52,344 bases of DNA from the IMG/VR virus record IMGVR_UViG_3300038988_000082, positions 1 to 52,344 of that record, one strand, 5' to 3'. This stretch comes from a virus (taxonomy: Duplodnaviria > Caudoviricetes). Shown here piece by piece: positions 9,362 to 42,047 of the stretch. Both the position numbers and the translations under genes were made by a program. The notes beneath the pieces are model-generated. The model was not told the origin of the DNA. It saw nothing but the letters and a program-made list of their open reading frames with translations, and did not search any database. How positions within the stretch are numbered: the first letter of the stretch is position 1; each line of letters opens with the position of its first letter.

Positions 9362-9364
9362 TTA

Positions 9365-9389
9365 CGCGAAAAAAACAGCCCCTTTTATG
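9365..9389 (+). promoter_or_regulatory. Phage promoter-like motif CGCG-N6-ACA-N9-ATG
   Basis: CGCG AAAAAA ACA GCCCCTTTT ATG. Confidence 0.75.
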
Positions 9390-9442
9390 GAGAGAAGGAA
9401 GATTAAAAGACCGACTTTCGGATTATAATCCCTCTCTCTTTT
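9389..9442 (+). ncRNA. Short structured RNA or leader hairpin
   Basis: GAGAGAAGGA pairs with TCCCTCTCTC, inner CCGA-CTT-TCGG, followed by a T tract; begins at the end of the promoter motif. Confidence 0.4.
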
Positions 9443-9470: not shown

Positions 9471-9791
9471 ATGCTAGAGAGTAAATTCAAGACTAAGTTG
9501 TGTAAGGAACTAAAAACCATGTTTCCTGGTTGCATGATCCTTCATGGAGATGCAAATAAGATTCAAGGAGTTCCTGACCTACTTATTCTCTATAAGAAAC
9601 GGTGGGCGTCGTTAGAAGGAAAACAATCCAAAGATGCTCCTGCTCAACCAAACCAACCGTACTATGTGGATAAGATGAACAAAATGTCATTTTCTCGGTT
9701 CATATATCCGGAGAATAAAAAGGAGGTATTAGATGAACTTCAACAAGCATTCAGACCTCGAAGGGCAGCACGCCTTCCTAGGGGCGAGTAA
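9471..9791 (+). CDS. VRR-NUC family nuclease (Holliday junction resolvase-like)
   Basis: MLESKF..., QGVPDLL, SLEGK, QPNQ pattern. Confidence 0.78.
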   Translation: MLESKFKTKLCKELKTMFPGCMILHGDANKIQGVPDLLILYKKRWASLEGKQSKDAPAQPNQPYYVDKMNKMSFSRFIYPENKKEVLDELQQAFRPRRAARLPRGE

Positions 9792-10290
9792 ATATCATTG
9801 GGTGAACTATGACGAAGCAAAAGTTATAGAATCATTTTCAAGGTTTATGGCTGCTCAAAGAGGCACCGAATTACATGCTTTTGCTGCTATTTGTATAAGA
9901 TTAGGTCAAAAGTTACCTAAGTGTAAAAAAACATTAAATATGTATGTCAATGATGCAATAGGGTTCAAGATGAGACCCGAGCAGATTCTATATTACTCGG
10001 ATAATTGTTTTGGAACTGCCGACACTATATCTTTTAGAAATGATCTTCTTCGTATTCACGATTTTAAGAGTGGTGTTACACCAACTAAAATGGAGCAGCT
10101 TAAAATATATGATGCTCTCTTTTGTTTGGAGTATCGTATCAAACCATCTGAAATTGATCATGAATTACGGATATATCAATCTGATGAGGTATTGTATCAT
10201 AAGCCGACACCAGATGAAATTATGGCAATTTGTGACAAAATTGTATTGTTTGATAAGATCATAACTAAGATTAGAGCAGAGGAGGAATGA
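9733..10290 (+). CDS. PD-(D/E)XK (Cas4/RecB-like) nuclease
   Basis: GTELH, FGTADTI, IHDFKSG and QLKIY motifs; AAGGAGG RBS. Confidence 0.75.
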   Translation: MNFNKHSDLEGQHAFLGASKYHWVNYDEAKVIESFSRFMAAQRGTELHAFAAICIRLGQKLPKCKKTLNMYVNDAIGFKMRPEQILYYSDNCFGTADTISFRNDLLRIHDFKSGVTPTKMEQLKIYDALFCLEYRIKPSEIDHELRIYQSDEVLYHKPTPDEIMAICDKIVLFDKIITKIRAEEE

Positions 10291-13019
10291 CCATGGATTT
10301 TATCGAGGACGACATTTTAGCCCATTATGGAATGAAGTATCGGTCTGGTCGATATCCTTGGGGTTCCGGAGATCATCCGTATCAACATAGTGGAGATTTT
10401 CTTAGCAGAGTTGAAGAACTCTCTAAAAATGGCATAAGCCAAGTTGAGTTGGCAAAACAAATGGGTATGACCACGACCGAGTTGCGCATGCAGCTTCGAG
10501 TCGCTAAGCACGAACGTAAGAACCTTGATGCCGATCGGGCGCAGTCTCTTAGAGATGATGGAAAGAGTTATAATAAGATAGCAAAAATTTTGGGGTACAA
10601 GAATGAGTCTTCTATTCGGTCTCTTTTAAATGAAAATTCGCAAGCTAACCGTAATAAGGCTAGAGTTACTGCGGATATTCTTAAAAATGAGATAGAGAAG
10701 AAGGGCATGCTCGATGTTGGCGTTGGCGTTGAAAGACAGCTTGGGGTTTCGCCTGGTGTTCTCCAGGAAGCTTTATTTATTCTTCGAACAGAAGGATATG
10801 AAGTGTATGGAATAGGCATTCAACAAGTGAATAACCCTGGAAAGCAATCAAATACCGCAGCTCTCTGTATGCCCGGAACCACATATAAACAAGCTTATGA
10901 AAAACTCAATGCTGGTGATCTTGAATCTGTCGGGGACTATCATTCTAGAGATGGTGGGAAGTCTTTTGATAAAAGAGAATACCCTTCAAGCATAGACTCA
11001 AGTCGTGTTGGCATTCGGTATGGCGATGAAGGCGGATCGTTAAAAGATGGTGTGATTGAAATAAGGCGTGGCGTACCAGATTTAGATTTAGGTAACTCTC
11101 ATTATGCACAAGTTCGTATATTGGTTGATGGAACCCATTATCTCAAAGGAATGGCTATGTATTCGGATGATATTCCTGATGGTGTGGATATTATGTTCAA
11201 TACCAATAAGAAAACCGGTACTCCTAAAACCGATGTCATGAAGCCTATAGGAAAGGATCCTGATAATCCGTTTGGAGCTTATATTAAAGCTGATGGTCAG
11301 AGTAAATATGATGACCCAAATGGAAAATATATTGATCCTGTTACTGGAAAGAAGCAGTCGCTTTCGGCTATTAATAAACTGAAAGAAGAAGGCGATTGGG
11401 ATTCAATGGCTCGAAACTTGTCTTCTCAGTTCTTATCTAAGCAGCCTATGAAGCTGATAAAGACTCAACTAGATTTGACATATGCCGATGCACAAGCAAC
11501 GTATGATGAAATAAAAAATCTAAATAATCCAACAGTTAAACGGAAAATGCTTATTGACTTTGCTGATGGGTGCGATGCAGCAGCCGTTCATTTGAAAGCG
11601 GCCTCACTCCCTCGTCAAAGAACACAAGTTATTTTACCAATAACCTCTATGAAGGAAAATGAAGTTTACGCTCCGAACTTTAAAGATGGAGAAACGGTAG
11701 CGTTAGTTCGATATCCTCATGGTGGAACATTTGAAATACCGGTGTTAACAGTTAATAATAAGAACAAGGGTGCTCAGAGTATTCTTGGTAAAAACATTAA
11801 GGATGCTATAGGCATCAATTCTAAGGTAGCTGAAAGGCTCTCTGGTGCCGACTTTGATGGGGATCAAGTAGCGGTTATACCAATTAATGATAAGGTTAGG
11901 ATTAAATCCACACCGCCTTTGAAGGCTCTTGTAGGGTTTAACGCTAAAGATCAATATGCTATTCCTGAGGGAAATCCCAAGAAGGTTCCAGTTATGACTA
12001 AGGCTAACACCCAGAAACAAATGGGTATGATTTCTAACCTTATAACAGACATGACCCTTAAGGGTGCCCCTGAAAGCGAGATAGCTAGAGCGGTTAAGCA
12101 TAGTATGGTCGTCATTGACGCAGCTAAGCATAAACTCGACTATAAGCAATCAGAGAAGGACAATGGTATTGCGGCACTTAAGAAGACCTATCAAGGGTAC
12201 ATTAAGGATGATGGTACAGAAGCCGGTGGTGCTTCAACCCTTCTTTCAAGAAGAAAGCAAACAATTGCTGTACCTGAACGACAAGGTAGTGGCCGAATTG
12301 ATAAGGAGACAGGTAAGGTGGTTTATAACACATCAGGTAGAACCTATGTGGATAAGACTGGAAAAAGAGTCCCCGCCACAACAAAAGTACATCTGATTAA
12401 TCAAGTAGACGATGTCCGGTCCTTGTCATCAGGAACACCCCAAGAAAACGCTTATGCTGATTATGCAAACAAAATGAAAGCGTTAGCCAATCAAGCTAGA
12501 AAAGAGTACATGACTACAGGTCGATTAGTGGCCTCTAGTAGTGCGAAGGAAACCTATAAGGCGGAGGTTGCTAAACTAAACGCCGACTTAAACATTGCGC
12601 TCATGAACGCCCCCCGTGAAAGGAAGGCTCAAGCCATAGCTAACTCCGTAGTAAAGGCAAAAAAACAAGATAACCCCGCTATGGATAAAGAGGAACAAAG
12701 AAAAGTTGGTCGTCAGGCACTGTATGATGCAAGGCATGCTGTTGGAGCCAGTGGTAAAGAAACACGCATCACCATTACCGATAGACAATGGGAAGCTATC
12801 CAGGCTGGAGCTATTACAGATACCAAGCTTACTCAGATCCTACGCTATACAGACCCTGATGTTATCAAGCAGCTAGCAACACCAAGAACAAGCACCCAAC
12901 TTTCTACAGCTAAAGCTAATAAGCTTAAGACTATGAAAGCATCCGGGTACTATACAAATGAAGAGATCGCCCAGTCTTTGGGTGTATCAGTATCAACAGT
13001 TAATAATTACAAGGGCTGA
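10287..13019 (+). CDS. Single-chain two-barrel (DPBB) RNA polymerase-like protein with terminal HTH domains
   Basis: Catalytic-loop motif LSGADFDGD (GADFDGD at 11844-11864), upstream VRYP (RYP at 11709), QVRI...LKG (11109-11150); two N-terminal HTH-like segments and a C-terminal TNEEIAQSLGVSVSTV. Confidence 0.8.
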   Translation: MTMDFIEDDILAHYGMKYRSGRYPWGSGDHPYQHSGDFLSRVEELSKNGISQVELAKQMGMTTTELRMQLRVAKHERKNLDADRAQSLRDDGKSYNKIAKILGYKNESSIRSLLNENSQANRNKARVTADILKNEIEKKGMLDVGVGVERQLGVSPGVLQEALFILRTEGYEVYGIGIQQVNNPGKQSNTAALCMPGTTYKQAYEKLNAGDLESVGDYHSRDGGKSFDKREYPSSIDSSRVGIRYGDEGGSLKDGVIEIRRGVPDLDLGNSHYAQVRILVDGTHYLKGMAMYSDDIPDGVDIMFNTNKKTGTPKTDVMKPIGKDPDNPFGAYIKADGQSKYDDPNGKYIDPVTGKKQSLSAINKLKEEGDWDSMARNLSSQFLSKQPMKLIKTQLDLTYADAQATYDEIKNLNNPTVKRKMLIDFADGCDAAAVHLKAASLPRQRTQVILPITSMKENEVYAPNFKDGETVALVRYPHGGTFEIPVLTVNNKNKGAQSILGKNIKDAIGINSKVAERLSGADFDGDQVAVIPINDKVRIKSTPPLKALVGFNAKDQYAIPEGNPKKVPVMTKANTQKQMGMISNLITDMTLKGAPESEIARAVKHSMVVIDAAKHKLDYKQSEKDNGIAALKKTYQGYIKDDGTEAGGASTLLSRRKQTIAVPERQGSGRIDKETGKVVYNTSGRTYVDKTGKRVPATTKVHLINQVDDVRSLSSGTPQENAYADYANKMKALANQARKEYMTTGRLVASSSAKETYKAEVAKLNADLNIALMNAPRERKAQAIANSVVKAKKQDNPAMDKEEQRKVGRQALYDARHAVGASGKETRITITDRQWEAIQAGAITDTKLTQILRYTDPDVIKQLATPRTSTQLSTAKANKLKTMKASGYYTNEEIAQSLGVSVSTVNNYKG

Positions 13020-13033
13020 AAGGAGGAATAGAT

Positions 13034-13291
13034 GTGGCTAAATGCGCATTATCAACTATTGATAATCCGTTTGATCCTTTTGATCAGTTTGACCAGTGGT
13101 ATAACTTTGATTTAGACCGGGGCTACAGTTCTTGTTCCTTCTTAGATCGAGTTGCAAGAACTTCTGATCAACTTTCAGAAGAAGAAAACGATGCAGAAAT
13201 TGAAAGAGCAATTGATGAAATTGTTAAGTATGACTTTCAAAACATCTACATCAAAGTAAAACAAAAGACAGAAGAATCAATTGATGTTTAA
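13034..13291 (+). CDS. Acidic hypothetical protein
   Basis: AGGAGG RBS, GTG start, 85 aa. Confidence 0.75.
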   Translation: MAKCALSTIDNPFDPFDQFDQWYNFDLDRGYSSCSFLDRVARTSDQLSEEENDAEIERAIDEIVKYDFQNIYIKVKQKTEESIDV

Positions 13292-13467
13292 TAAAACAAA
13301 GTTTAAAGACAATTAAATACTATAAAGTATAATTGTCACGGCGCAATAGCTTTTAATTCTAAGAAAGGACAAATGTAAGTATGAATAAATATTGTTTTTT
13401 AAATAATTTTGTTCAAAGTCTTACAGATCGTTCTCACTAATTACCATCATAAGTTATTAACGGGATA

Positions 13468-13548
13468 TAGGGGGGTCGCAAAAAAAAGCACCCCCTCCTG
13501 TCATCGCCGGCCCCCTAAAAAATTCCCCGGGGGTATATTTTTTAAAAA
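13468..13548. other. Candidate genome terminus / packaging (cos/pac) region
   Basis: Alternating G/C and A/T runs (GGGGGGTCGCAAAAAAAAGCACCCCCT...AAAAAATTCCCCGGGGG) in the largest intergenic gap, upstream of the packaging genes. Confidence 0.45.
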
Positions 13549-13564
13549 CAATCCACTATTCGTA

Positions 13565-13676
13565 TGACTTTTAAGCGGGCTTGGGGAGGGTTCGGGCGGT
13601 AGCATAAACAAAGCTTTTTACTTTTTCTCCTTTCAATAAAAGAGGCAGTCAACTTTCCAGGCCTGTTTAAAAGTTA
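13565..13676 (+). ncRNA. Long hairpin RNA with anti-RBS loop
   Basis: 24 contiguous pairs (13565-13588 with 13653-13676), 6 of them G-U; loop contains TTTTTACTTTTTCTCCTTTCAATAA. Confidence 0.6.
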
Positions 13677-13749
13677 AACAAAACTGTGGTCGAAGTATGT
13701 CAAAACTATACTAAAAGTTATTAGCAATAATTAATGAGGAGGGAAGAAC

Positions 13750-14328
13750 ATGTCAAAAAATCTAGATCAAATAGACCTCTTATATTTAATGAGTAAAATA
13801 AAATCTATGTTATACCCCGTAGGAACAATATATATGACAACAGAAAACATAAACCCTGCAGAAATGTTTGGCGGAACCTGGGTAGCATGGGGATCGGGCA
13901 GAGTTCCGGTCGGCGTGGATACTAGTCAAACCGAATTTAATACGGTTGAAAAAACCGGAGGGCATAAAGCCACAGAACAACATACCCATGTTCAGAATAG
14001 TCATACACATTCTCAGAATAGTCATAGTCATGGTGATAATTTTTCAGTTGCTACTGGAGGCGCACATACTCATAATGTTAAATGGAGGGACGGTGCTGCA
14101 TCTGGCAGTTTATATTTTTTACGCCGTGATGACCCGTCGGATAGTTATAACGGTACAAACGCCGCTGCGATGAGCGGAGGGTCTCATAGTCATACACTAA
14201 ACGGGTCGGTATCTTCTGCAACCGCCACAAATAATTCGACAACCGCCACAAATCAAGACTTTGGAACAGGTAATGCTGGCAACCTCCAACCGTTTATAAC
14301 TTGTTATATGTGGAAAAGGACAGCTTAA
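13750..14328 (+). CDS. Baseplate/tail-fibre-tip-like protein (T4 gp10/gp12 C-terminal-like) with HxH motifs
   Basis: YPVGTIY...NPAEMFGGTW...GRVPVGVD...TGG, repeated HTH/HSH tripeptides, NLQPFITCYMWKRTA. Confidence 0.75.
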   Translation: MSKNLDQIDLLYLMSKIKSMLYPVGTIYMTTENINPAEMFGGTWVAWGSGRVPVGVDTSQTEFNTVEKTGGHKATEQHTHVQNSHTHSQNSHSHGDNFSVATGGAHTHNVKWRDGAASGSLYFLRRDDPSDSYNGTNAAAMSGGSHSHTLNGSVSSATATNNSTTATNQDFGTGNAGNLQPFITCYMWKRTA

Positions 14329-14351
14329 AATTTCGAAAGGAGTCGGTAAAG

Positions 14352-14693
14352 ATGAAAAGAGTTAAAGCAACGGATCGTCCCGAATCTTCGCAAAAGATGA
14401 GACCAGCTTTGACTCCTGAAGCTGATGAAAATCAGTTGATATCACTAGCCACAAATCTCGCTAGAAAGCAACTGATGAATGGGACGGCCTCCTCACAAGT
14501 CATTACTCATTATTTGAAGCTTGGTTCAACTACCGCTAAGTATGAAAAAGAAGTGTTGATTAACCAAAACAAACTTCTTACAGCAAAGATCGAAGCACTA
14601 CAATCTCAGAAGAGAATTGAGGATCTTTATGCTAATGCTCTAGCAGCTATGAAAAAGTACAGCGGTAACGGGAGTGTTAACGATGAAGATTAG
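14352..14693 (+). CDS. Putative terminase small subunit / packaging-region protein
   Basis: Position at start of packaging module, helical protein; GAAAGGAG RBS. Confidence 0.5.
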   Translation: MKRVKATDRPESSQKMRPALTPEADENQLISLATNLARKQLMNGTASSQVITHYLKLGSTTAKYEKEVLINQNKLLTAKIEALQSQKRIEDLYANALAAMKKYSGNGSVNDED

Positions 14694-15099
14694 GACATAT
14701 TCTGAACTGAGAAGATTTCGAACATTTGAGGATCGTTATGAGTATCTTCGGCTTCAAGGAAAAGTTGGGGAGTCGACATTTGGATTTGATAGGATATTTA
14801 ATCAGATGTTCTACAAATCTGGGGAATGGTTGGCGCTTCGAGATGATGTAATCATAAGGGATAATGGTTGCGATCTTGGAATTAAAGGACGAGAGATTCA
14901 AAAGGGACTTTTTATTCATCATATGAATCCGATTTCAATTGAGGATATAAAGTCTCATAGTGATTGGCTCTTAAACCCTGATTTTTTGATCACTACAATC
15001 CTTTCGACCCATAACGCAATCCACTATGGAAACAAAGATCTACTGGTTCTCGATCCAATTGTGAGAACCAGAAATGATACATGCCCATGGAAACACTAA
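14683..15099 (+). CDS. HNH endonuclease (packaging-associated)
   Basis: W..LR..VIIRDNGCDLG...IHHMNP...LIT....THNAIH. Confidence 0.82.
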   Translation: MKIRTYSELRRFRTFEDRYEYLRLQGKVGESTFGFDRIFNQMFYKSGEWLALRDDVIIRDNGCDLGIKGREIQKGLFIHHMNPISIEDIKSHSDWLLNPDFLITTILSTHNAIHYGNKDLLVLDPIVRTRNDTCPWKH

Positions 15100-15115
15100 G
15101 AAGGAGGAAAGTATA

Positions 15116-15517
15116 ATGGAAAAGAAAAACATACCTGAAAACGTGAACGAAGAAATCAAGACCGGTGGCCTGGAGATACTCTCCGATAACGAGACACCTC
15201 CTGAAGAGCCGAAAGTGGTCGAACCGGAAGCCACTGTTCAGGAGGAGAAGTCGACCGAACCTGATGTACCTGAAACTCCCGAAGCGCCTGAAGAGCCGAA
15301 GCCTCCGACAATAGGCATCGTTGTCAATTGCCAGAAACTCAATGTCAGGAGATGTCCGAGAATCGACCCCAATCCTGCGAGCGTTGTTGCGGTATTGAAC
15401 GCGCTCACCGAAGTTGAGATCGACGCGAAGAAGTCAACAGATGACTTCTACAAAATCTTTACAGTCGTCGGAGTCGAAGGATTCTGCCTGAAGAAGTTCA
15501 TCGCTATCCGGCAGTAA
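15116..15517 (+). CDS. Protein with acidic Pro/Glu-rich N-terminus and SH3b-like C-terminal domain
   Basis: GIVVNCQKLNVRR.P...EGFCLKKFI; AAGGAGG RBS. Confidence 0.65.
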   Translation: MEKKNIPENVNEEIKTGGLEILSDNETPPEEPKVVEPEATVQEEKSTEPDVPETPEAPEEPKPPTIGIVVNCQKLNVRRCPRIDPNPASVVAVLNALTEVEIDAKKSTDDFYKIFTVVGVEGFCLKKFIAIRQ

Positions 15518-15527
15518 GGAGGACAAC

Positions 15528-15893
15528 ATGGCCGTTACAGAAAGCATCCTTGACTCTATCAAGGGGTTACTCGGTATTGCGGCGGACGATACTACGTTTG
15601 ATACTGATGTGATCACGCACATCAATACTGTAATGGCCGATTTGTATCAACTCGGTATTGGTCCGCCCGAAGGTTTCGCAATCCAAGATAATACTTCAAA
15701 ATGGAGTGACCTACTCGGAACCGACAAGCGGTTTGAATCTGTTAAGACTTATGTCTACATCGAAGTGAAGTTGGTCTTTGACCCTCCTCAAAGTTCGGCG
15801 TTGATAGAATCTCTTAAGAGAACTTCTGATAAGCTTGCGTTTCGAATTAGCATTACTCCAGAGATTACAGCACTCGATGGCGGGGAGGGATAG
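15528..15893 (+). CDS. Putative head-tail connector/adaptor
   Basis: SILDSIKGLLGI...FDTDVITHIN...LVFDPPQSS; size and context. Confidence 0.6.
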   Translation: MAVTESILDSIKGLLGIAADDTTFDTDVITHINTVMADLYQLGIGPPEGFAIQDNTSKWSDLLGTDKRFESVKTYVYIEVKLVFDPPQSSALIESLKRTSDKLAFRISITPEITALDGGEG

Positions 15894-15894
15894 T

Positions 15895-16347
15895 ATGTGG
15901 AAGTATAATGAACTCGCTCATCATGGCATTAAAGGCATGCGGTGGGGGATAAGGAGAACCAAAAAACAATTGGGAAATGCCGGCTCTTCTTCGCAGTCAA
16001 AGCCGAGGAAAGAAATTTCGGAAGAACAGAGCGATAAAGCAAAAAAGAGCGTGGCCAACGAAGCTGCAAGCGTCGCAAGGAACGCAAAAGAAATTCAAAG
16101 CGCAATTTCTAATATTCGGAAAGCTTCCAGAAAGGGTGAAGACCTGAGTAAGATTAGTGATTCCGAATTGAGAGAAAAAGTAAATCGGATGAACTTAGAG
16201 CAGCAATATTCTCGGCTCTCCCGGGATAAAACTTCCAAGGGAGAAACGTATGTCAGTAATGCATTAAGTATTGCTGGCAATGTATTGGCGGCCGGGGCGT
16301 CAGCTGTCACGATTGCCCTTGCAATAAAGACATTGAAAGGTGGTTGA
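15895..16347 (+). CDS. Basic head-associated protein (ELAHHGIKGMRWG motif)
   Basis: N-terminal LxHHG.KGM.WG.RR motif, Lys/Arg-rich. Confidence 0.7.
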   Translation: MWKYNELAHHGIKGMRWGIRRTKKQLGNAGSSSQSKPRKEISEEQSDKAKKSVANEAASVARNAKEIQSAISNIRKASRKGEDLSKISDSELREKVNRMNLEQQYSRLSRDKTSKGETYVSNALSIAGNVLAAGASAVTIALAIKTLKGG

Positions 16348-16351
16348 TCAT

Positions 16352-16837
16352 ATGTGGCAGTATAATCAAACTGGCGAACTGATGCATTATGGCGTTATGG
16401 GGATGAAGTGGGGCGTTCGTAGAGCACAATCCACGTTGGATTCAGCATCAAATTATTATAGAAAATCAGCCAAGAAAGCAAAAGATAAGGCTTCGACAGC
16501 CGATGCGTATGCTTATCTTAGAACCGACGCAAAAGGCCAAGTGCACGGTGGTTTAAATAAGAAACTAAACGTGTCAAATGCTCAGGCCAGATCTGAAAGA
16601 TTTAAAGAAAAAGCACAAAGAATGGAAAACGTTGCTCGTGGAATCGATAAGGCCAAAAAACTTATTGCTGGAATGGATACTAAACAGGCTTTAGCGACAC
16701 TTCGGAAAGAAAATAAAGTGTCTAAAGGAGAGGCTTTCTTATCTAGCTTCGGTATGGATAAGTCAACTCAATTGTACTTTGAAGCCGTTGATTATGCTAA
16801 TCGAATAACTCGAGAAGGTAGAAAGAAAGTCGATTAA
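16352..16837 (+). CDS. Basic head-associated protein (ELMHYGVMGMKWG motif)
   Basis: Same N-terminal motif as the upstream gene. Confidence 0.7.
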   Translation: MWQYNQTGELMHYGVMGMKWGVRRAQSTLDSASNYYRKSAKKAKDKASTADAYAYLRTDAKGQVHGGLNKKLNVSNAQARSERFKEKAQRMENVARGIDKAKKLIAGMDTKQALATLRKENKVSKGEAFLSSFGMDKSTQLYFEAVDYANRITREGRKKVD

Positions 16838-16849
16838 AGGAGGTCTATT

Positions 16850-18595
16850 ATGGCGCTATCGAATACAGCCGTTCCTAAATATTACGGCCAATTTCGAGAC
16901 GCCGTAATTAGAGGAGAGATCCCAGTATGCCGAGAGATTTCTATGGAGATGAATCGCATAGATGATCTCATAGCCAATCCGGGAATATACTATGATGATG
17001 AAGCAGTCGAAGGTTGGATAGCTTTCTGTGAAAATGAAATGACTCTTACTGACGGCGCAGATCTTCAATTGCTAGATTCATTTAAACTTTGGGGCGAAGA
17101 AATTTTTGGTTGGTATTATTTTGTCGAACGAAGCGTATACGAACCAAACGAAAGTGGTCGTGGTGGACATTACGTCCGCAAAACGGTTAAGCGAAGACTT
17201 GTAAACAAGCAGTATTTAATTGTTGGAAGAGGCGCGGCAAAATCACTCTACGATTCATGCATTCAAGCATACTTTGAGAATGTGGATACTTCCACAACTC
17301 ATCAAATCACAACTGCACCAACAATGAAGCAAGCCGAAGAAGTTCTCTCACCTATTCGTACTGCTATCACACGATCTCGTGGACCGCTTTTTCAGTTTCT
17401 TACAGAAGGCTCTTTGCAGAACACGACAGGTTCAAAGGCTAATCGTGTTAAGCTGGCCTCAACAAAGAAAGGTATCGAAAACTTTCTTACCGGATCTCTG
17501 ATAGAGATAAGACCTATGAGCATCCACAAGCTTCAGGGTCTTAGACCAAAGGTAGCGACAGTTGACGAGTGGCTTTCCGGAGATATCAGAGAGGATGTAA
17601 TAGGAGCCATTGAGCAAGGCGCCTCGAAGGTGGATGACTACTTGATCATTGCAACTAGTTCGGAAGGTACTGTCCGGAATGGTAGTGGTGATACAATCAA
17701 AATGGAGTTGTCAGACATCCTTAAGGGTGAATACCCAAATCCTCACGTGTCGATTTTCTGGTACAAACTTGATTCGGTTGATGAAGTAGCCGATCCAGAC
17801 ATGTGGCTTAAGGCTCAACCGAACCTTGGAAAGACCGTTAGCTATGAAACGTATCAACTGGATGTTGAAAGAGCTGAGAAAGCTCCTGCAGCCAGGAATG
17901 ATATTCTTGCAAAACGGTTTGGTATCCCAATGGAAGGGTATACCTATTACTTCACATATGAGGAAACGCTTCCACATCGCAAACGAGATTTCTGGAAGAT
18001 GCCATGTGCGCTAGGTGCAGACCTTTCACAAGGTGATGACTTTTGCTCATTTACTTTCTTGTTCCCATTACGTAGCGGGAGTTTCGGCGTAAAGACTCGA
18101 AATTATATTTCTGAGTCAACACTTATGAAATTACCAGCTGCGATGAGGATGAAGTATGATCAATTTATAGACGAAGGAAGTTTAATCGTTCTTGATGGAA
18201 CAGTATTAGATATGATGGTCGTTTATGAAGATCTGGATAAGCACATTACCGAGAGCGAATATGATGTCCGATGCTTTGGGTTTGACCCATATAACGCCAA
18301 GGAATTTGTCGCACGTTGGGAATCTGAAAATGGTCCATTTGGTATAGAGAAGGTTATCCAAGGAACAAAGACAGAATCTGTACCTTTAGGTGAACTCAAA
18401 AAGTTGGCCGAAGAACGGATGCTGATATTTGATGAGGAACTCATGGCCTTTACTATGGGAAACTGTATCACCATGGAAGATACCAACGGAAATAGGAAGC
18501 TCCTTAAGAGGCGGTATGAGCATAAAATTGATGCTGTAGCGGCTATGATGGACGCCTATATTGCATATAAACTCAATAAGGATGCTTTTGAATAA
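16850..18595 (+). CDS. terL: Terminase large subunit
   Basis: VGRGAAKS Walker A, ATVDEW Walker B, nuclease GADLS...FDPYN...KIDAVAA; precedes portal. Confidence 0.92.
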   Translation: MALSNTAVPKYYGQFRDAVIRGEIPVCREISMEMNRIDDLIANPGIYYDDEAVEGWIAFCENEMTLTDGADLQLLDSFKLWGEEIFGWYYFVERSVYEPNESGRGGHYVRKTVKRRLVNKQYLIVGRGAAKSLYDSCIQAYFENVDTSTTHQITTAPTMKQAEEVLSPIRTAITRSRGPLFQFLTEGSLQNTTGSKANRVKLASTKKGIENFLTGSLIEIRPMSIHKLQGLRPKVATVDEWLSGDIREDVIGAIEQGASKVDDYLIIATSSEGTVRNGSGDTIKMELSDILKGEYPNPHVSIFWYKLDSVDEVADPDMWLKAQPNLGKTVSYETYQLDVERAEKAPAARNDILAKRFGIPMEGYTYYFTYEETLPHRKRDFWKMPCALGADLSQGDDFCSFTFLFPLRSGSFGVKTRNYISESTLMKLPAAMRMKYDQFIDEGSLIVLDGTVLDMMVVYEDLDKHITESEYDVRCFGFDPYNAKEFVARWESENGPFGIEKVIQGTKTESVPLGELKKLAEERMLIFDEELMAFTMGNCITMEDTNGNRKLLKRRYEHKIDAVAAMMDAYIAYKLNKDAFE

Positions 18596-18610
18596 AAGGA
18601 GGATGAGTAG

Positions 18611-19888
18611 ATGGAGCAAGCAATTGGTTCCAGATTAAGGAGCGCTTGGAACGCGTTTTTTAATAAAGATCCGACCGGATACTACAATATGGATAAAGGG
18701 CCGGCGTATTCTTCTAGGCCTGATCGGCCTCGCTTTTCAGCTGGCAATGATCGTTCTATTGTTACTTCGGTTATGAACCGAATTGCTTTAGACGTCGCCG
18801 CTATTAGTATACGGCATGTTCTTCTGGATAAGAATGGTCGATTCCTGTCTACGGTTCCCTCTAAGCTAGACAACTGTCTCTCTTTAGAGGCAAATATCGA
18901 TCAGACAGGAAGAGCTTTTATTCAGGATTTAGTTATGTCGATGCTTGATGAAGGTGTTGTGGCCGCAGTTCCGGTTGATACCACTACAAATCCAGATGAA
19001 GGGGATTCTTGGGATATCGAAACCATGCGAACCGGAAAGATCGTAAGTTGGTATCCAAGACATATTCGGACTCGGGTATATAATGAACGATCTGGCCGAC
19101 AGGAAGAGATTACAATTCGAAAAGACATGACGGCGATTATTGAGAATCCTCTATATGCTGTCATGAACGAGCCAAGTTCTACTATGAAACGCCTTGTCAG
19201 GAAGTTAAATCTACTTGATGCGGTGGATGAACAAAGTAGTTCTGGAAAATTAGATCTTATAATTCAATTGCCATATATTATTAAAACAGAGGCTCGACGT
19301 CAACAAGCAAACAATCGACGTAAGGACATTGAGGATCAATTATCCGGTTCTAAGTATGGTATTGCCTATGCCGATGGTACAGAGCGTATCACGCAATTGA
19401 ACCGACCCGTCAACAACAACCTGATGGAAACCATTAAATATTTGACGAGTATGCTATATAGCCAGTTAGGTATTACTGAAAGCATTCTTGATGGTACAGC
19501 TGACGAAAAAACAATGCTCAATTACTTTAATCGAACAGTTGAACCGATTATATCGGCTATTGTTGATGAAATGAGACGGAAGTTCCTAACTAAGACTGCA
19601 AGAACTCAAATGAAGTCTATTATGTTCTTCAGAGATCCGTTCAAGCTTGTTCCTGTGAATAATATTGCGGAAATCGCTGATAAGTTTACTCGTAATGAGA
19701 TAATGTCTTCGAATGAGATTAGGCAGGTTATAGGGATGAAGCCGTCCAAAGATCCTAAAGCAGATGAATTGAGGAACAAGAACTTAAGCGCCCCTGCAGG
19801 GAAGGGAACGGGCAATGATGCTGACCCGACTGGCTTAGGCTCTAATGAAACGTTAAAGGAGGAAAGTCAAAATGGCGAAAAAGTATGA
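18611..19888 (+). CDS. Portal protein
   Basis: Between TerL and capsid, 425 aa, HK97-like end MSSNEIRQVIGM.P. Confidence 0.88.
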   Translation: MEQAIGSRLRSAWNAFFNKDPTGYYNMDKGPAYSSRPDRPRFSAGNDRSIVTSVMNRIALDVAAISIRHVLLDKNGRFLSTVPSKLDNCLSLEANIDQTGRAFIQDLVMSMLDEGVVAAVPVDTTTNPDEGDSWDIETMRTGKIVSWYPRHIRTRVYNERSGRQEEITIRKDMTAIIENPLYAVMNEPSSTMKRLVRKLNLLDAVDEQSSSGKLDLIIQLPYIIKTEARRQQANNRRKDIEDQLSGSKYGIAYADGTERITQLNRPVNNNLMETIKYLTSMLYSQLGITESILDGTADEKTMLNYFNRTVEPIISAIVDEMRRKFLTKTARTQMKSIMFFRDPFKLVPVNNIAEIADKFTRNEIMSSNEIRQVIGMKPSKDPKADELRNKNLSAPAGKGTGNDADPTGLGSNETLKEESQNGEKV

Positions 19889-21632
19889 TTTCAGTGGCTG
19901 GGCTACCCGAAATAATCTTAAATGTAGTGATGGTCGCACGATCATGAGAGACGCATTTAAGCATAATGATGGGCATACCGTCCCGCTGGTATGGAATCAC
20001 GACCATGCCGATCCATTCAACGTTCTTGGGCATGCACTTTTGGAGAATCGTCCGGAAGGTGTATATGCCTATTGTTCGTTTAATGACTCGGAGTCTGGCC
20101 GGCAAGGAAAGTTGCTCGTTGAACATGGCGACGTGGACTCTTTGTCTATTTATGCTAATAAACTCCAGCAACAGGGCGGAAACGTTCTGCATGGTGATAT
20201 TCGCGAGGTGAGTCTTGTCTTGGCCAGCGCAAATCCTGGGGCTTTTATCGACTCCATTATACGGCACGGCGATGAGGCAGACGACGAGGCGCTCATCTAC
20301 ACAGGTGAAGCGCTTGAGCTTGCTCATGCTGATAAACCCGATGAAAAGAAGAATAAACCAGATGATAAGAAAGAAGGGGAAGAAGGAATGGCAAAAGACG
20401 TAAAACATGCCGACTCCGAAGGCACAAAAACGATCCAGGAAGTTTTCGATTCCATGACCGAAGAGCAGAAGACGGTGGTGTACGCCTTAGTCGGGGAAGC
20501 CATCGCCGATAAAGAAGATTCCGTAGAACACAACGATACCAAAGGAGGAGATAATACTATGAAACACAATGTGTTTGACAACGACAGCCAGGATGATCAG
20601 AAGAACGAGAATGTGCTGAGCCATGCGGATTCTGAGGCGATTTTCGCCGACGTGAAGCGATACGGCAGCTTGAAAGAAAGCGCGCTGGCGCACGGCATCA
20701 CTAATATTGATTACCTGTTCCCGGATGCCAAGACCCTTCAGACGGCTCCGGATTTCATTCAGCGCCCTAATTCGTGGGTGCAGCAGTTCCTGGGTGACGT
20801 TCATCACACGCCGTTCTCCAGGATCAAGTCAATCCATGCCGACATCACAACGGAAGATGCCCGGGCAAAGGGTTACATCAAAGGCAATCAGAAGGTCGAT
20901 GAGGTCTTTGCATTGCTCAAGAGGACAACGACTCCGCAGACCGTGTACAAGAAACAGAAGCTGGATCGCGACGACGTAATTGACATCACGGATTTCGATG
21001 TGGTGGCTTGGCTCAAGACAGAGATGCGCATCATGCTTGACGAGGAAATTGCGCGCGCTGCATTGGTCGGCGACGGCCGGCTTGCTGCAAGTGACGACAA
21101 GATCGATCCGACTCACATCCGTCCTATCTGGACTGATGACGATCTGTACACGATCAAGACCCTCATCACAGTTTCTGAAGAAGCGACTCCGGATCAGAAA
21201 GCCAAAGCGTTTATCCGCGCGGCTGTCAAGGCCAGGAAGAACTACAAGGGTTCTGGCAATCCGAAACTGTACACGACGGAAGACGTCCTCACCGACTGCC
21301 TGTTGATGGAAGACAATACGGGCCGTATCATATACGACTCCGTCACCAAACTGGCTGCCACTCTTCGTGTAAGCGAGATTGTGACTGTTCCGGTTATGGA
21401 AGGTCTGACCAGAACGGTCGGTGTTGCGACTCATACCCTGTTGGGCATCATCGTCAACCCGATCGATTACAACATCGGTGCTGATAAGGGCGGCGCGGTC
21501 AACATGTTCGATGATTTCGACATCGACTACAATGCTCAGAAGTACCTGATCGAGACCCGTTGTTCTGGTGCTCTTACCAGACCGTTCTCGGCCATCGCGA
21601 TCGAGATGACGGAAGAAGCAGCCGCCGGTTAA
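19872..21632 (+). CDS. Prohead protease-scaffold-major capsid protein fusion (HK97 fold)
   Basis: N-terminal protease (VPLVWNHDH, SLSI, IREVSLV..ANP.A), acidic linker, capsid domain (LDEEIARAALVGDG). Confidence 0.88.
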   Translation: MAKKYDFSGWATRNNLKCSDGRTIMRDAFKHNDGHTVPLVWNHDHADPFNVLGHALLENRPEGVYAYCSFNDSESGRQGKLLVEHGDVDSLSIYANKLQQQGGNVLHGDIREVSLVLASANPGAFIDSIIRHGDEADDEALIYTGEALELAHADKPDEKKNKPDDKKEGEEGMAKDVKHADSEGTKTIQEVFDSMTEEQKTVVYALVGEAIADKEDSVEHNDTKGGDNTMKHNVFDNDSQDDQKNENVLSHADSEAIFADVKRYGSLKESALAHGITNIDYLFPDAKTLQTAPDFIQRPNSWVQQFLGDVHHTPFSRIKSIHADITTEDARAKGYIKGNQKVDEVFALLKRTTTPQTVYKKQKLDRDDVIDITDFDVVAWLKTEMRIMLDEEIARAALVGDGRLAASDDKIDPTHIRPIWTDDDLYTIKTLITVSEEATPDQKAKAFIRAAVKARKNYKGSGNPKLYTTEDVLTDCLLMEDNTGRIIYDSVTKLAATLRVSEIVTVPVMEGLTRTVGVATHTLLGIIVNPIDYNIGADKGGAVNMFDDFDIDYNAQKYLIETRCSGALTRPFSAIAIEMTEEAAAG

Positions 21633-24680: not shown

Positions 24681-25058
24681 ATGATAAGCTTTAAACAAAG
24701 TGGAGACTTCTCCAAGACTATACAGTTCCTTGGTAAGACACAAAAAGCACTCAGCCTTATGGATCTGAACAAGTTTGGTCAAGAAGGAGTGGCTGCTCTT
24801 GCATCCGCAACGCCAATAGATTCAAGTCGTACGGCTAATTCCTGGTACTATGAAATTACCAGGGGTCCTGGATCGGTAACCATTACTTGGTTAAACTCAA
24901 ATGTTCAAAATGGAGTTCCAATTGCAGTTATACTACAGTATGGGCATGGGACTCGAAATGGTGGGTATGTGGAGGGGAGAGATTATATCAATCCAGCTCT
25001 CAGACCCGTATTTGATAAGATTGCAGAATCTGCGTGGAAGGAGGTTACCAGAGTATGA
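24681..25058 (+). CDS. Neck/tail completion protein (HK97 gp10-like)
   Basis: TP.DS.RTANSW, QYGHGT, YINPAL. Confidence 0.7.
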   Translation: MISFKQSGDFSKTIQFLGKTQKALSLMDLNKFGQEGVAALASATPIDSSRTANSWYYEITRGPGSVTITWLNSNVQNGVPIAVILQYGHGTRNGGYVEGRDYINPALRPVFDKIAESAWKEVTRV

Positions 25059-38680: not shown

Positions 38681-38727
38681 TGCTCGCAGTTATAACAATC
38701 AATCTTAAAATTTTCCCGGGTGGGTTT

Positions 38728-38752
38728 CGCGGAAAAAACAAAGTACTTTATG
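38728..38752 (+). promoter_or_regulatory. Phage promoter-like motif
   Basis: CGCG GAAAAA ACA AAGTACTTT ATG. Confidence 0.75.
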
Positions 38753-38791
38753 GAACCGAAAGGTTGCTATTATCTAAAAGAGGTTAGCAAG

Positions 38792-39028
38792 ATGGCTGGA
38801 TACAAAAAGGGGTCTAAGGCAATGGAGGATATGTTAGTAAGAAGGTTCGGCAATGATTTGAGAAAAATTTACGAAAAAGCTCCTCAAGCGGAGAAAGAAA
38901 TCGTAACTTTGGCCAAACACATTGGCGAAGTTCTTGACACTTATCTGGATACGCAGCAGAACGAAGAGATTGGCCTTGCAATATTTCTTATTGATAAGGA
39001 TAACAAAGTTACAGAGATCGAGCCTTAA
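38792..39028 (+). CDS. Hypothetical cassette protein
   Basis: AAGAGG RBS before ATG 38792; stop codon lies inside the repeat hairpin. Confidence 0.7.
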   Translation: MAGYKKGSKAMEDMLVRRFGNDLRKIYEKAPQAEKEIVTLAKHIGEVLDTYLDTQQNEEIGLAIFLIDKDNKVTEIEP

Positions 39029-39069
39029 CAAGGGCTCTTTCTTTCGCGAAAAAAACATGATGTATAATG
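39020..39069 (+). repeat. Cassette junction: terminator hairpin plus promoter motif
   Basis: GAGCCTTAACAAGGGCTCTTTCTTT then CGCG AAAAAA ACA TGATGTATA ATG. Confidence 0.8.
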
Positions 39070-39137
39070 AAGAATAGCTCAGATGGGAGAGCACTAGCAT
39101 AGTCTAGAGGTCAAGGGTTCAAGTCCCTTTTCTTTTT
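39068..39137 (+). tRNA. tRNA-like RNA with shortened anticodon arm (pseudo-tRNA or mimic)
   Basis: D arm TAGCTCAGATGGGAGAGCA, T arm AAGGG-TTCAAGT-CCCTT, acceptor GAAGAA/TTCTTT; anticodon arm CTAG-CATAGT-CTAG is 14 nt rather than 17; no CCA. Confidence 0.65.
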
Positions 39138-39158
39138 ATTTTTGAAAGGAGAATTATT

Positions 39159-39377
39159 ATGTTACTACTTGGAATCGGAATTGGTATTATTATCGGAGCA
39201 GTCGTAATGATATTTTTGTTACGGGAACGCCCAGTCGGTTTTCTTATGGTGAACAACCAAGATAAGGAAGAAGATCCCTATTTATTTTTAGAGTTAACAA
39301 GCGATGTCCAGACGGTCTGTAAGAAATCGTATATCAGGCTCAAAGTTAACAAAAAAGGTTATACTCCGCAAGAATAA
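39159..39377 (+). CDS. Small membrane protein
   Basis: GAAAGGAG RBS; N-terminal TM helix. Confidence 0.75.
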   Translation: MLLLGIGIGIIIGAVVMIFLLRERPVGFLMVNNQDKEEDPYLFLELTSDVQTVCKKSYIRLKVNKKGYTPQE

Positions 39378-39391
39378 CAACGTCTTTTATG
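39367..39391 (+). promoter_or_regulatory. Phage promoter-like motif
   Basis: CGCA AGAATA ACA ACGTCTTTT ATG. Confidence 0.7.
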
Positions 39392-39428
39392 GAACACATT
39401 AATTTATATTTTTGAGGAGGTTAAAAGA

Positions 39429-39821
39429 ATGAATGAGGAGCTGAAGAACTCGCTGGACAAGAGGATCGAACAGTGTCTAAAAAAGTTAGAAACTTTAGAA
39501 GAAGGTAGTGAAGCAAAAAAATCAGCAATTGGAGACCTCGATATACTTTACAAATTACATCTTGAGGAGATCAAGATTCAAATGGAAACGCTCGATAAAT
39601 TTGAGAAGAGGAGAATTGAAGAGGAGAATAATAAAAGCGTTGTAAAGGAACAATTAATAGATCGATATATCAAGGTTGGATTGGAAATTGTATTGGGAGT
39701 TAGCCAATTAATATTTTGTGCTATATACCTAAATAGAGGGTTTAAGTTTGAGGAAACTGGAACATTTACGTCAGCGACGAACAGAAAATGTCAGAGTTGG
39801 GTTAAACCAAACAGAAGATAA
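39429..39821 (+). CDS. Coiled-coil membrane protein
   Basis: GAGGAGG RBS; TM helix followed by FEETG. Confidence 0.75.
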   Translation: MNEELKNSLDKRIEQCLKKLETLEEGSEAKKSAIGDLDILYKLHLEEIKIQMETLDKFEKRRIEEENNKSVVKEQLIDRYIKVGLEIVLGVSQLIFCAIYLNRGFKFEETGTFTSATNRKCQSWVKPNRR

Positions 39822-39840
39822 GATTATATTGTTTAAGATG

Positions 39841-39903: not shown

Positions 39904-39931
39904 GAAAATAATACTATTTTAATAAAGGAGA

Positions 39932-40294: not shown

Positions 40295-40300
40295 AGAATT

Positions 40301-42043: not shown

Positions 42044-42047
42044 TTTT

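What the first reader, a model, noticed from the sequence alone, without database searches (positions are those of the whole stretch)
10287..20693. Shared L-x-H peptide links the RNAP, two basic head proteins and the capsid precursor: possible virion-packaged polymerase
Seen: the RNAP starts ...DDILAH-YGM...RYPWG (10314-10325); two head-region genes start ELAH-HGIKGMRWG (15910) and ELMH-YGVMGMKWG (16376). The protease-capsid precursor has ELAH-AD (20316), VLSH-AD (20613) and ALAH-GIT (20682), plus IRH-G, VKH-A and VEH-N, all in the linker between protease and capsid domains. Established: prohead proteases cut scaffold and internal proteins at one short consensus, and T4 internal proteins carry a cleaved N-terminal capsid-targeting peptide. 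Inference: LxH is the maturation site, and the RNAP is loaded into the head, processed and injected to transcribe the CGCG-ACA cassettes.
Basis: inference. Interest (0 to 1): 0.8.

Follow-up and report, generated by a model that had tools for sequence, protein, structure and literature searches.

The report
Shared histidine tag on phage cargo
This uncultured tailed phage puts the same short, floppy peptide on the front of its own RNA polymerase and of two basic head-region proteins, and the tag's Leu-x-His opening also studs the spacer cut out of the capsid precursor, so the polymerase is probably carried inside the virus particle, though nobody has measured the cutting.

Summary
The 910-aa protein is a QDE-1/YonO-type two-barrel RNA polymerase. 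Its first 35 residues are its best-conserved part, yet they are predicted disordered.

The opening of this leader (Φ-L-x-H-Y-G-x-K) matches Pfam DUF7211 by profile-profile comparison (95%, P 4e-8). DUF7211 starts the two basic proteins upstream of TerL.

In the protease-capsid fusion, all 7 spacer His have L/I/M/V two residues upstream and G/A/N just after. Across 46 homologues, 92% of 286 spacer His follow this rule (background 24%). H132 ends the protease fold, and H274 sits where mature HK97-type capsids begin.

New support: the depositors' record of Lactococcus phage 1706 labels both its DUF7211 protein (orf7) and its RNA polymerase homologue (orf75) "structural protein". Long DUF7211 proteins are polyprotein-like, with 2-5 tags separating acetyltransferase and deamidase-toxin modules.

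Weak point: the tag has an aromatic residue after His, which spacer sites almost never have. Cleavage of the tag is therefore unproven.

This scan reached the same reading before on other DNA (three notes). Verdict: real, and a new variant of known capsid-targeting and virion-polymerase systems. Loading is probable; trimming is open.

The parts
10287..13019 (+). 910-aa single-subunit two-barrel RNA polymerase (QDE-1/YonO type) with HTH domains at both ends
   Evidence: phrog_4291 E=0. A-D-F-D-G-D-Q is in the sequence, and D522 F523 D524 G525 D526 are invariant in 36 homologues. The AF2 model matches QDE-1 by Foldseek at E 1e-8 and phage P23-45-type gp64 RNAP at 7e-6. HTH hits at residues 873-909 and 40-119.
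10287..10391 (+). RNAP leader, residues 1-35: the DUF7211-like tag (I-L-A-H at 10314-10325) followed by the S-G-R-Y-P-W-G-S-G block
   Evidence: pLDDT is below 50 for residues 1-35. Even so, H13 G15 S20 G21 R22 Y23 G26 S27 G28 P31 Q33 are invariant in 36 homologues. hhalign against a DUF7211 alignment gives 95%, P 4e-8, over 13 columns. The Pfam HMM itself does not match it at E<=10.
15895..16347 (+). DUF7211 protein A (150 aa from the ATG at 15895; the start is uncertain, with alternatives TTG 15835 and ATG 15877). Basic, coiled-coil, with a hydrophobic C-terminal helix
   Evidence: PF23847 33.9 bits, cut-off 27. Motif at 15907-15963. pI 10.2.
16352..16837 (+). DUF7211 protein B (161 aa from the ATG at 16352; the ORF opens at GTG 16340). 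Basic
   Evidence: PF23847 45.1 bits. Motif at 16376-16432. pI 10.0.
19872..20267 (+). Prohead serine protease domain (S78, HK97 gp4-like), residues 1-132 of the fusion, ending in I-R-H132
   Evidence: Peptidase_S78 24.2 bits, cut-off 21. Folded at pLDDT 72-92 up to residue 132. H132 is invariant in 46 homologues.
20268..20693 (+). Acidic spacer (scaffold-like), residues 133-274. Φ-x-H sites at H152 (20325-20327), H179 (20406-20408), H220 (20529-20531), H232 (20565-20567), H251 (20622-20624) and H274 (20691-20693)
   Evidence: pI 4.4. Mostly pLDDT below 50, with helices at 188-215 and 251-273. All 7 of 7 His of residues 126-275 (these six plus H132) follow Φ-x-H|G/A/N. H274 is invariant, and H152 and H251 are at least 90% conserved, in 46 homologues.
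20694..21632 (+). HK97-fold major capsid domain, residues 275-586 (312 aa, 34.7 kDa if cut after H274)
   Evidence: Foldseek E about 1e-11 to HK97-type capsids. VIA-align Z 16-18. The first residues of processed capsids map to model residues 264-275: HK97 104, T5 164, D3 114, GTA 89-94.
15528..15893 (+). Connector protein (context: left border of the tag-gene slot)
   Evidence: Phage_connect_2 E 5e-35.
16850..18595 (+). Terminase large subunit (context)
   Evidence: TerL_nuclease and TerL_ATPase; phrog_9.
18611..19888 (+). Portal protein (context)
   Evidence: Phage_portal E 2e-16.
9363..9392 (+). Promoter-like element (TACGCG-A7-CA ... TTTATGGAG) heading the endonuclease-exonuclease-RNAP operon
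   Evidence: One of 10 matches in the window against 1.2 expected. A match lies about 0.9 to 4.4 kb upstream of the RNAP start (about 0.9 kb in most) in 49 of the 157 loci held, one match in each.

Best explanation
The window is a 1706/FP_oengus-like siphovirus. Its head is built from a protease-spacer-capsid fusion. I propose the following.

(1) The fused S78 protease cuts after His in Φ-x-H|small motifs. This frees the protease at H132, chops the acidic spacer into peptides of 12-41 residues, and leaves a 312-aa capsid protein starting at G275.

(2) A disordered N-terminal peptide, [DE]-x-Φ-L-x-H-[YH]-G-x-K..W-G (Pfam DUF7211, with a longer-looped variant on the RNAP), acts as a capsid-loading tag. 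It sits on a changeable set of basic proteins encoded between connector, TerL and portal, and on the phage's own two-barrel RNA polymerase.

(3) The tagged proteins are enclosed in the procapsid, possibly trimmed at the tag's His, and leave with the DNA.

(4) The injected polymerase then starts transcription at the conserved TTCGCG-A-rich-ACA...TATGG elements.

Shown: the shared tag, its disorder and conservation, the Φ-x-H rule of the spacer, and the domain boundaries. Supported by a relative's database record: the virion presence of a DUF7211 protein and of the RNAP homologue. Inferred: the cut specificity, loading by the tag, trimming of the tag, and which polymerase reads the elements.
For: Shared tag:
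- hhalign of 45 RNAP leaders against 32 DUF7211 segments gives 95%, P 4e-8.
- The leader is conserved in 39 distinct RNAP N-termini plus 5 variants, one of them cut off by a contig end. It is also conserved in 1706, ReqiPoco6 and Mudcat.
- RNAP residues 1-35 have pLDDT below 50 although they hold 11 invariant residues, as expected of a linear motif.
- In 21 DUF7211 proteins only M1, H12, G14, G17, M18, W20 and G21 are invariant; the rest is unrelated.

Head-module linkage:
- 68 of 68 further DUF7211 loci carry this TerL, and 56 of 68 carry this protease-capsid fusion.
- Each has 1-5 tag motifs, lying mostly in the connector-TerL-portal stretch.

Cut rule:
- 7 of 7 spacer His in the window follow it.
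- Of 286 spacer His in 46 homologues, 92% have hydrophobic P3 against a 24% background, and 85% have S/G/A/N at P1'.
- The full signature occurs at 6 of 8 conserved His columns in the fusion, against 1 of 8 in portal, TerL and the RNAP body.
- H132 ends the folded protease. H274 lies within about 10 residues of where the first modelled residues of processed capsids align.

Virion presence:
- The depositors' record EU081845.1 labels orf7 (two DUF7211 motifs) and orf75 'structural protein'.
- orf75 is 36% identical to the window RNAP at E 3e-164 over the full length, leader included.

Cargo-like architecture:
- 98 of the 120 listed long DUF7211 proteins have 2 or more motifs.
- In the ten I scanned, the modules include GNAT acetyltransferase, papain-fold Gln deamidase toxin and 2'-5' RNA ligase-like domains.

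Established knowledge (recalled, from no call): prohead proteases of this fold class use Φ-x-P1 sites (T4 gp21 L/I-x-E, herpesvirus V/L-x-A|S), and T4 loads IPI-III and Alt through a cleaved N-terminal targeting peptide.
Against: - The tag matches the spacer rule only at P3 and P1. P1' is aromatic in 226 of 227 DUF7211 motifs and in 0% small in RNAP leaders, whereas spacer sites have S/G/A/N.
- A conserved His with Leu two residues before it is a weak coincidence test for what is a single homologous motif.
- Most of the tag's conservation lies after the His (G-M-K-W-G, S-G-R-Y-P-W-G-S-G). This is unlike T4, where the targeting part is removed.
- The Pfam HMM does not match the RNAP leader at E<=10.
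- The 1706 label comes from a database record. I could not read the paper, so neither the method nor the observed size is known to me.
- The same record also labels orf62 and orf71 'structural', and these lack the tag.
- The RNAP operon carries the same promoter-like element as the small-gene cassettes. An early-made, non-virion enzyme is therefore not excluded.
- The counts over homologues are not phylogenetically independent.
- Motif sets were picked with regular expressions anchored on H-x-G.
Confidence: 0.55

Rival explanations
1. The tag is a loading or retention motif that is not cut after His. It binds the procapsid interior, the protease domain (as an uncleavable pseudo-substrate), the portal or the DNA, and stays on the mature cargo. 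Its Φ-x-H resemblance to the spacer sites is partial or coincidental.
For: - P1' is aromatic in 226 of 227 motifs, against S/G/A/N in 85% of spacer sites.
- Conservation is strongest after the His.
- The stretch before the His is only 5-18 residues from the nearest Met and is poorly conserved.
- Internal copies in polyprotein-like proteins could equally be repeated binding units.
Against: - P3 is Leu in 219 of 227 motifs and His is invariant. This is unexplained if the residues serve only binding.
- One motif per module in the 98 of 120 listed long proteins that carry two or more is what a polyprotein junction looks like.
Confidence: 0.25
2. The RNA polymerase is not a virion protein. It is made after infection from its own promoter, and the leader serves another shared purpose, such as contact with a host factor, with DNA or with the membrane. 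The 1706 'structural protein' label reflects carry-over in the virion preparation.
For: - The RNAP gene closes the replication module behind the same promoter-like element as the small-gene cassettes.
- The 1706 record also labels two untagged non-module ORFs 'structural'.
- No paper in the held library states virion association.
Against: - The leader is shared only with proteins of the head-assembly module.
- One of those proteins carries the same 'structural' label in 1706.
- The leader is disordered and detached from the enzyme fold.
- In linear relatives the RNAP gene is the next-to-last gene before the genome end, so in concatemers it lies directly upstream of the structural genes.
Confidence: 0.12
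3. The Φ-x-H|small-D/E repeats of the spacer are not cleavage sites. They are metal-binding or scaffold-contact motifs, and the protease cuts elsewhere.
For: - His followed by Asp or Glu two residues later in 48% of sites, within an acidic spacer, could bind metal.
- No cleavage has been measured.
Against: - The sites bracket both folded domains exactly.
- The implied fragments of 12-41 residues resemble the scaffold break-down known from other phages.
- A hydrophobic residue fixed at P3 is typical of this protease class (recalled knowledge), not of metal sites.
Confidence: 0.08

Closest known systems
Phage T4 capsid-targeting sequence on IPI-III and Alt, removed by prohead protease gp21 at L/I-x-E (recalled; no call)
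   Same: A short N-terminal peptide is shared by otherwise unrelated, mostly basic proteins and enzymes. It contains a Φ-x-P1 motif like those that riddle the scaffold. The cargo is injected with the DNA.
   Different: P1 would be His, not Glu. Most of the conserved tag lies after the putative cut and would stay on the cargo. The tag also recurs inside polyprotein-like proteins. The protease is fused to the capsid protein. Neither cutting nor loading has been measured.
Virion RNA polymerases: N4 vRNAP and crAss-like gp66 (recalled); P23-45 tape-measure-fused RNAP (PMC10770324, abstract seen in the listing)
   Same: A phage-encoded polymerase is carried in the particle to start transcription. 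crAss gp66 and the P23-45 enzymes are two-barrel polymerases like this one, and the model matches P23-45-type gp64 and gp96 structures.
   Different: This one is a free-standing 100-kDa protein of a 52-kb siphovirus. It carries a small removable-looking tag and is not part of a giant or tape-measure protein. Virion presence rests on one relative's database label.
Pfam PF23847 (DUF7211), function unknown
   Same: Proteins A and B are members above the cut-off.
   Different: The RNAP leader shares only the first half and has a 3-residue longer loop before W-G. No paper in the held library mentions the family (0 papers).
Fused protease-capsid genes of Arthrobacter cluster AM/AU phages and phage 1706 (PMC5513430, passages read; bioRxiv 10.1101/842583, passages read)
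   Same: Same gene family: 246 phage records match, 244 of them over at least 80% of the length. It co-occurs with the RNAP, which matches 250 records with near-identical host counts.
   Different: In the passages I read, those papers note the fusion and the polymerase motifs. They say nothing of cleavage sites, a shared leader or virion packaging.
MuF-domain polymorphic toxins of temperate phages and encapsulin cargo-loading peptides (both recalled; no call)
   Same: A conserved head-associated module or peptide is joined to swappable effector domains inside an HK97-fold shell. DUF7211 is likewise joined to GNAT and deamidase-toxin domains.
   Different: The sequence motif and its position differ, and there is no MuF domain here.

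Membership tests
Pfam PF23847 (DUF7211) | Match to the 25-position HMM above the 27-bit gathering score | tested here: met
   Protein A scores 33.9 bits and protein B 45.1 bits. The genome search gives 35.8 and 47.4 bits.
Pfam PF23847 (DUF7211), RNAP leader | Match to the HMM | tested here: not met
   There is no match at E<=10 in the window beyond the two proteins. Profile-profile similarity covers only the first 13 columns (95%, P 4e-8). The leader is therefore a related half-motif, not a member.
Two-barrel single-subunit RNA polymerases (QDE-1 / YonO / crAss gp66 type) | D-x-D-G-D metal-binding loop | tested here: met
   A-D-F-D-G-D at residues 521-526. D522, D524, G525 and D526 are invariant in 36 homologues.
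Two-barrel single-subunit RNA polymerases (QDE-1 / YonO / crAss gp66 type) | Double-psi beta-barrel polymerase fold | tested here: met
   AF2 model at pLDDT 78. Foldseek probability 1.0 and E 1e-8 to QDE-1, and 7e-6 to P23-45-type gp64 RNAP. TM-scores are low (0.25-0.31), as expected for multi-domain models. phrog_4291 E=0.
Two-barrel single-subunit RNA polymerases (QDE-1 / YonO / crAss gp66 type) | DNA-templated RNA synthesis | not testable with these tools
   Needs the purified protein.
T4-type capsid-targeting and processing system | One short N-terminal peptide on several unrelated proteins | tested here: met
   (His lies 5-18 residues after the nearest Met in the printed N-termini).
T4-type capsid-targeting and processing system | The peptide ends in the prohead protease's cleavage consensus | tested here: inconclusive
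   P3 and P1 match: P3 is Leu in 219 of 227 motifs and His is invariant. P1' does not match: it is aromatic, against S/G/A/N in spacer sites. The consensus itself is inferred, not measured.
T4-type capsid-targeting and processing system | Tagged proteins are present in virions | tested here: inconclusive
   The only evidence is a relative's record. 1706 orf7 and orf75 are labelled 'structural protein' by the depositors. The paper is not held.
T4-type capsid-targeting and processing system | Peptide removed by the protease; peptide sufficient for loading | not testable with these tools
   Needs N-terminomics and reporter-fusion experiments.
S78 prohead serine protease (HK97 gp4-like) | Match to Peptidase_S78 above the cut-off | tested here: met
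   24.2 bits against 21, over residues 22-131.
S78 prohead serine protease (HK97 gp4-like) | Conserved catalytic His and Ser | tested here: inconclusive
   H43, H45 and S92 are invariant, and H54 is at least 90% conserved, in 46 homologues. I did not map them onto a solved protease.
HK97-fold major capsid protein | HK97 fold | tested here: met
   Foldseek E about 1e-11. VIA-align Z 16.3, rmsd 5.8 over 264 residues to HK97 1ohg_A. Z 18.1, rmsd 5.9 over 278 residues to the GTA capsid.

The most novel reading that the evidence does not exclude
DUF7211 is a portable 'load-and-cut' address label of a very large siphovirus lineage. The lineage spans Lactococcus 1706, Faecalibacterium FP_oengus, hundreds of Arthrobacter, Gordonia and Streptomyces phages, and many gut phages. 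Any module that follows the tag would be enclosed in the head by docking to the capsid-fused protease, which has an unprecedented P1-His specificity. The module is released by cleavage and injected. The candidate modules are basic membrane-active proteins, acetyltransferases, deamidase toxins and the phage's own two-barrel RNA polymerase. The polymerase would make early transcription independent of the host enzyme. The virion cargo of thousands of phages could then be read from sequence alone.
Probability: 0.35. Interest if true: 0.8.

Novelty: new variant of a known kind. Interest (0 to 1): 0.68.

Why it matters
- It would give a function to a Pfam domain of unknown function.
- It would define a new cleavage specificity (after His) for HK97-type prohead proteases.
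- It would add a small siphovirus lineage with many cultured, harmless-host members to the few phages known to carry an RNA polymerase in the particle.
- Dairy phage 1706 and hundreds of student-isolated actinobacteriophages belong to the lineage, so every step is testable with standard methods.
- The tag could serve as a tool to load proteins into HK97-type shells.

Tried and rejected
- Complex prediction of the protease domain (residues 1-130) with the RNAP leader (1-45), each as an alignment: no answer. Score 0.02 against a mark of 0.32, and the controls were not run. This is evidence neither way.
- Sequence search of solved structures with the RNAP and with the fusion: 0 matches each.
- Papers not held: Summer 2011, tried by DOI and by PMC id; Garneau 2008, tried by PubMed id. 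The 1706 virion data could therefore not be read.
- Paper searches for DUF7211 (0 papers), for protease-capsid fusions, for virion RNAP with YonO, for phage 1706 structural proteins, for 1706 with ORF75 (only unrelated herpesvirus papers) and for oengus found no statement on cleavage sites or virion RNAP in this lineage.
- One search was badly framed and returned irrelevant papers.
- tblastn of protein B against phage records found only 2 weak hits over the motif.
- A single-sequence search for long relatives found no candidates. The alignment search worked.
- I asked whether DUF7211 occurs outside this lineage, which would allow a test of co-variation between the tag and the protease sites. 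The 68 loci returned all belong to the same TerL lineage, so that test could not be made.
- I considered the tag as part of the polymerase fold. I rejected this because residues 1-35 are disordered in the model.
- Earlier notes of this scan for this genome: none.
Full report
WHAT IS THERE

The window is a virus record of 52,344 bases, with nearly all genes on the + strand. The region of the finding reads as follows:
- RecB-like exonuclease, 9733-10290
- 910-aa polymerase, 10287-13019
- a small conserved ORF
- a non-coding gap
- tail-fibre-like gene
- phrog_4259
- HNH endonuclease
- SH3-like gene
- connector, 15528-15893
- two DUF7211 proteins, about 15895-16347 and 16352-16837
- TerL, 16850-18595
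- portal, 18611-19888
- a 586-aa protease-capsid fusion, 19872-21632
- tail genes

THE LINEAGE

The polymerase and the fusion each match about 250 phage records with almost the same host counts: Arthrobacter 95, Gordonia 55, Streptomyces 54, Lactococcus 13, Faecalibacterium 2, Rhodococcus 4. This is the Actinobacteria-Firmicutes 'supercluster' of bioRxiv 10.1101/842583. That preprint already noted the polymerase motifs (passages read).

OBSERVATION

L-x-H-[YH]-G occurs 4 times in six frames. Three of these are the three N-termini. 200 shuffles gave a mean of 0.9.

THE POLYMERASE

- It matches phrog_4291 at E=0.
- It carries A-D-F-D-G-D, which is invariant in 36 homologues.
- Its AF2 model (pLDDT 78) matches QDE-1 at E 1e-8 and the P23-45-type phage polymerases.
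- Residues 1-35 have pLDDT 29-39. Yet they hold 11 invariant positions (H13 G15 S20 G21 R22 Y23 G26 S27 G28 P31 Q33).
- A strongly conserved but unfolded N-terminus is the signature of a linear motif that works through a partner.
- The leader is kept in 39 distinct N-termini plus 5 variants from uncultured relatives. It is also kept in 1706, ReqiPoco6 and Mudcat.

THE SHARED TAG

- Proteins A and B are Pfam DUF7211 members.
- The Pfam HMM does not match the polymerase leader.
- A profile of 45 polymerase leaders nevertheless aligns to a profile of 32 DUF7211 segments at 95% probability, P 4e-8, over 13 columns: Φ-L-x-H-Y-G-V-K. Caveat: both sets were anchored on H-x-G by my regular expressions.
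- After that point DUF7211 continues G-M-K-W-G-V-R-R. The polymerase has a three-residue longer loop, R-R-S-G-R-Y-P-W-G-S-G.
- Among 21 DUF7211 proteins only M1, H12, G14, G17, M18, W20 and G21 are invariant. Everything after the tag differs.
- ReqiPoco6 has seven such genes.
- In 68 further loci found with the tag, 68 of 68 carry this TerL and 56 of 68 carry this fusion. The other 12 loci (4.4 to 13.8 kb) were not examined further.
- Each of these loci has 1-5 tag motifs, mostly in the connector-TerL-portal stretch.

THE SPACER

- The fusion model (pLDDT 75) has a folded protease up to residue 132. A largely disordered acidic stretch follows (133-274, pI 4.4), with two helical parts. An HK97-fold domain follows that.
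- All 7 His of residues 126-275 have L/I/M/V at P3 and G/A/N at P1'.
- In 46 homologues, H132 and H274 are invariant and H152 and H251 are at least 90% conserved. The surrounding sequence is poorly conserved.
- Of 286 spacer His, 92% have hydrophobic P3 (background 24%). 85% have S/G/A/N at P1', and 48% have D/E at P2'. These counts are not phylogenetically independent.
- As a control, the full signature marks 6 of 8 conserved His columns in the fusion. It marks only 1 of 8 in portal, TerL and the polymerase body.
- H132 is the last residue of the protease fold.
- The first modelled residues of processed capsids align to model residues 264-275: HK97 Ser104, T5 164, D3 114, GTA 89-94. A cut at H274|G275 therefore gives a capsid protein of normal size (312 aa).
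- Cutting at every Φ-x-H|small site in the spacer would give peptides of 12-41 residues, small enough to leave the shell.
- I conclude that Φ-x-H|small is very probably the protease's site. This is an inference from conservation and position, not a measurement.

DOES THE TAG CARRY THAT SITE?

Only in part.
- P3 is Leu in 219 of 227 DUF7211 motifs, and His is invariant.
- P1', however, is H/Y/F/W in 226 of 227. That class is essentially absent from spacer sites.
- Most of the tag's conservation lies after the His.
- Two further facts favour a junction role. Of the 120 listed long DUF7211 proteins, 98 hold 2 or more motifs, one before each module. Phage 1706 orf7 looks like the window's two genes joined, with a full motif kept between them.

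IS THE POLYMERASE IN THE PARTICLE?

- The depositors' record of phage 1706 (EU081845.1) labels eleven ORFs as structural: ten as 'structural protein' and orf13 as 'major structural protein'.
- These include orf7, the DUF7211 protein, and orf75.
- orf75 is the polymerase homologue: 36% identity, E 3e-164, full length, leader included.
- RefSeq later renamed it 'RNA-dependent RNA polymerase'.
- ReqiPoco6 gp106 carries the label by similarity only.
- I could not read the 1706 paper, so the method and the observed mass are unknown to me.
- orf62 and orf71, which are also labelled, lack the tag.
- In the passages and listings I saw, no held paper links this polymerase to the virion.

CARGO-LIKE CONTENT

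In the ten long DUF7211 proteins I scanned, the modules include GNAT acetyltransferases, a papain-fold glutamine-deamidase toxin domain and a 2'-5' RNA ligase-like domain. The window's own two proteins are basic (pI about 10), and one ends in a hydrophobic helix. This resembles injected phage cargo such as T4 Alt and the internal proteins (recalled).

PROMOTER-LIKE ELEMENT

- A TTCGCG-A-rich-ACA ... TTTATGG element occurs 10 times against 1.2 expected, always on the + strand.
- Most copies follow a terminator hairpin in front of small genes at 38.7-43.8 kb.
- Canonical sigma-70 sites are not enriched there: 9 found against 14.7 expected.
- One copy (9363) heads the endonuclease-exonuclease-polymerase operon.
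- A match lies upstream of the polymerase start, once each, in 49 of the 157 loci held: about 0.9 kb upstream in most, and up to 4.4 kb in a few.
- A lineage-wide element across phages of different hosts fits a phage-polymerase promoter. If so, the enzyme's own gene depends on it, which would call for an injected first copy. Which polymerase reads the element is untested.

VERDICT

- Observation: confirmed.
- Shared tag: shown.
- Φ-x-H as the spacer cut rule: strongly supported by sequence.
- Virion polymerase: probable, and for the first time backed by a relative's record.
- Trimming of the tag after His: open.

Three earlier notes of this scan reached the same reading on other genomes. They are not independent evidence. 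Here I add three things: the 1706 record, the P1' discrepancy, and the polyprotein and enzyme modules.

Noticed in passing
window 38683-43797, 45427 and 9363: A conserved promoter-like element (TTCGCG, A-rich stretch, ACA, then TTTATGG) occurs 10 times against 1.2 expected. Most copies sit just after an intrinsic-terminator hairpin in front of small genes. A match lies about 0.9 to 4.4 kb upstream of the polymerase start (about 0.9 kb in most) in 49 of the 157 loci held, one match in each.
   Followed up: partly
window 39067-39138: ARAGORN calls a tRNA-like gene with an undetermined anticodon ('tRNA-???', anticodon ta), directly behind one promoter-like element.
   Followed up: no
window about 13292-13749: At least 13 related contigs end 300-450 bp after the polymerase gene. 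ReqiPoco6 has an annotated 3' cos overhang 539 bp after its polymerase stop. The physical genome end probably lies in this non-coding gap, and the window is a permuted assembly.
   Followed up: partly
window 25034-32380: The 2448-aa tape measure gene holds tandem repeats of 186 nt (4 copies, 29387-30130), 192 nt (3 copies, 30335-30910) and 180-nt spaced units (27470-28270).
   Followed up: no
window 41225-42043, 42995-43762, 45060-46013: Three paralogues of phrog_2152 (unknown function) and two of phrog_10740 (42289-43008). There is also a perfect 41-nt repeat at 41580 and 42914.
   Followed up: no
L069:466-3216, L131:4257-7265, L117:1285-4359: Some polymerase leaders carry an extra, upstream half-copy of the tag in which the His is replaced (for example by S or N), ahead of the intact L-x-H-Y-G copy.
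   Followed up: no
proteins P0008, P0009, P0016, P0022, P0062, P0087: Long DUF7211 proteins from metagenomes are polyprotein-like, with 2-5 tags. They include GNAT acetyltransferase, papain-fold glutamine deamidase toxin and 2'-5' RNA ligase-like modules.
   Followed up: partly
L154:45052-45330 and L152:3659-4012 (phage 1706 orf62, orf71): Two small ORFs in the replication region of phage 1706 are labelled 'structural protein' by the depositors but have no DUF7211 tag.
   Followed up: partly
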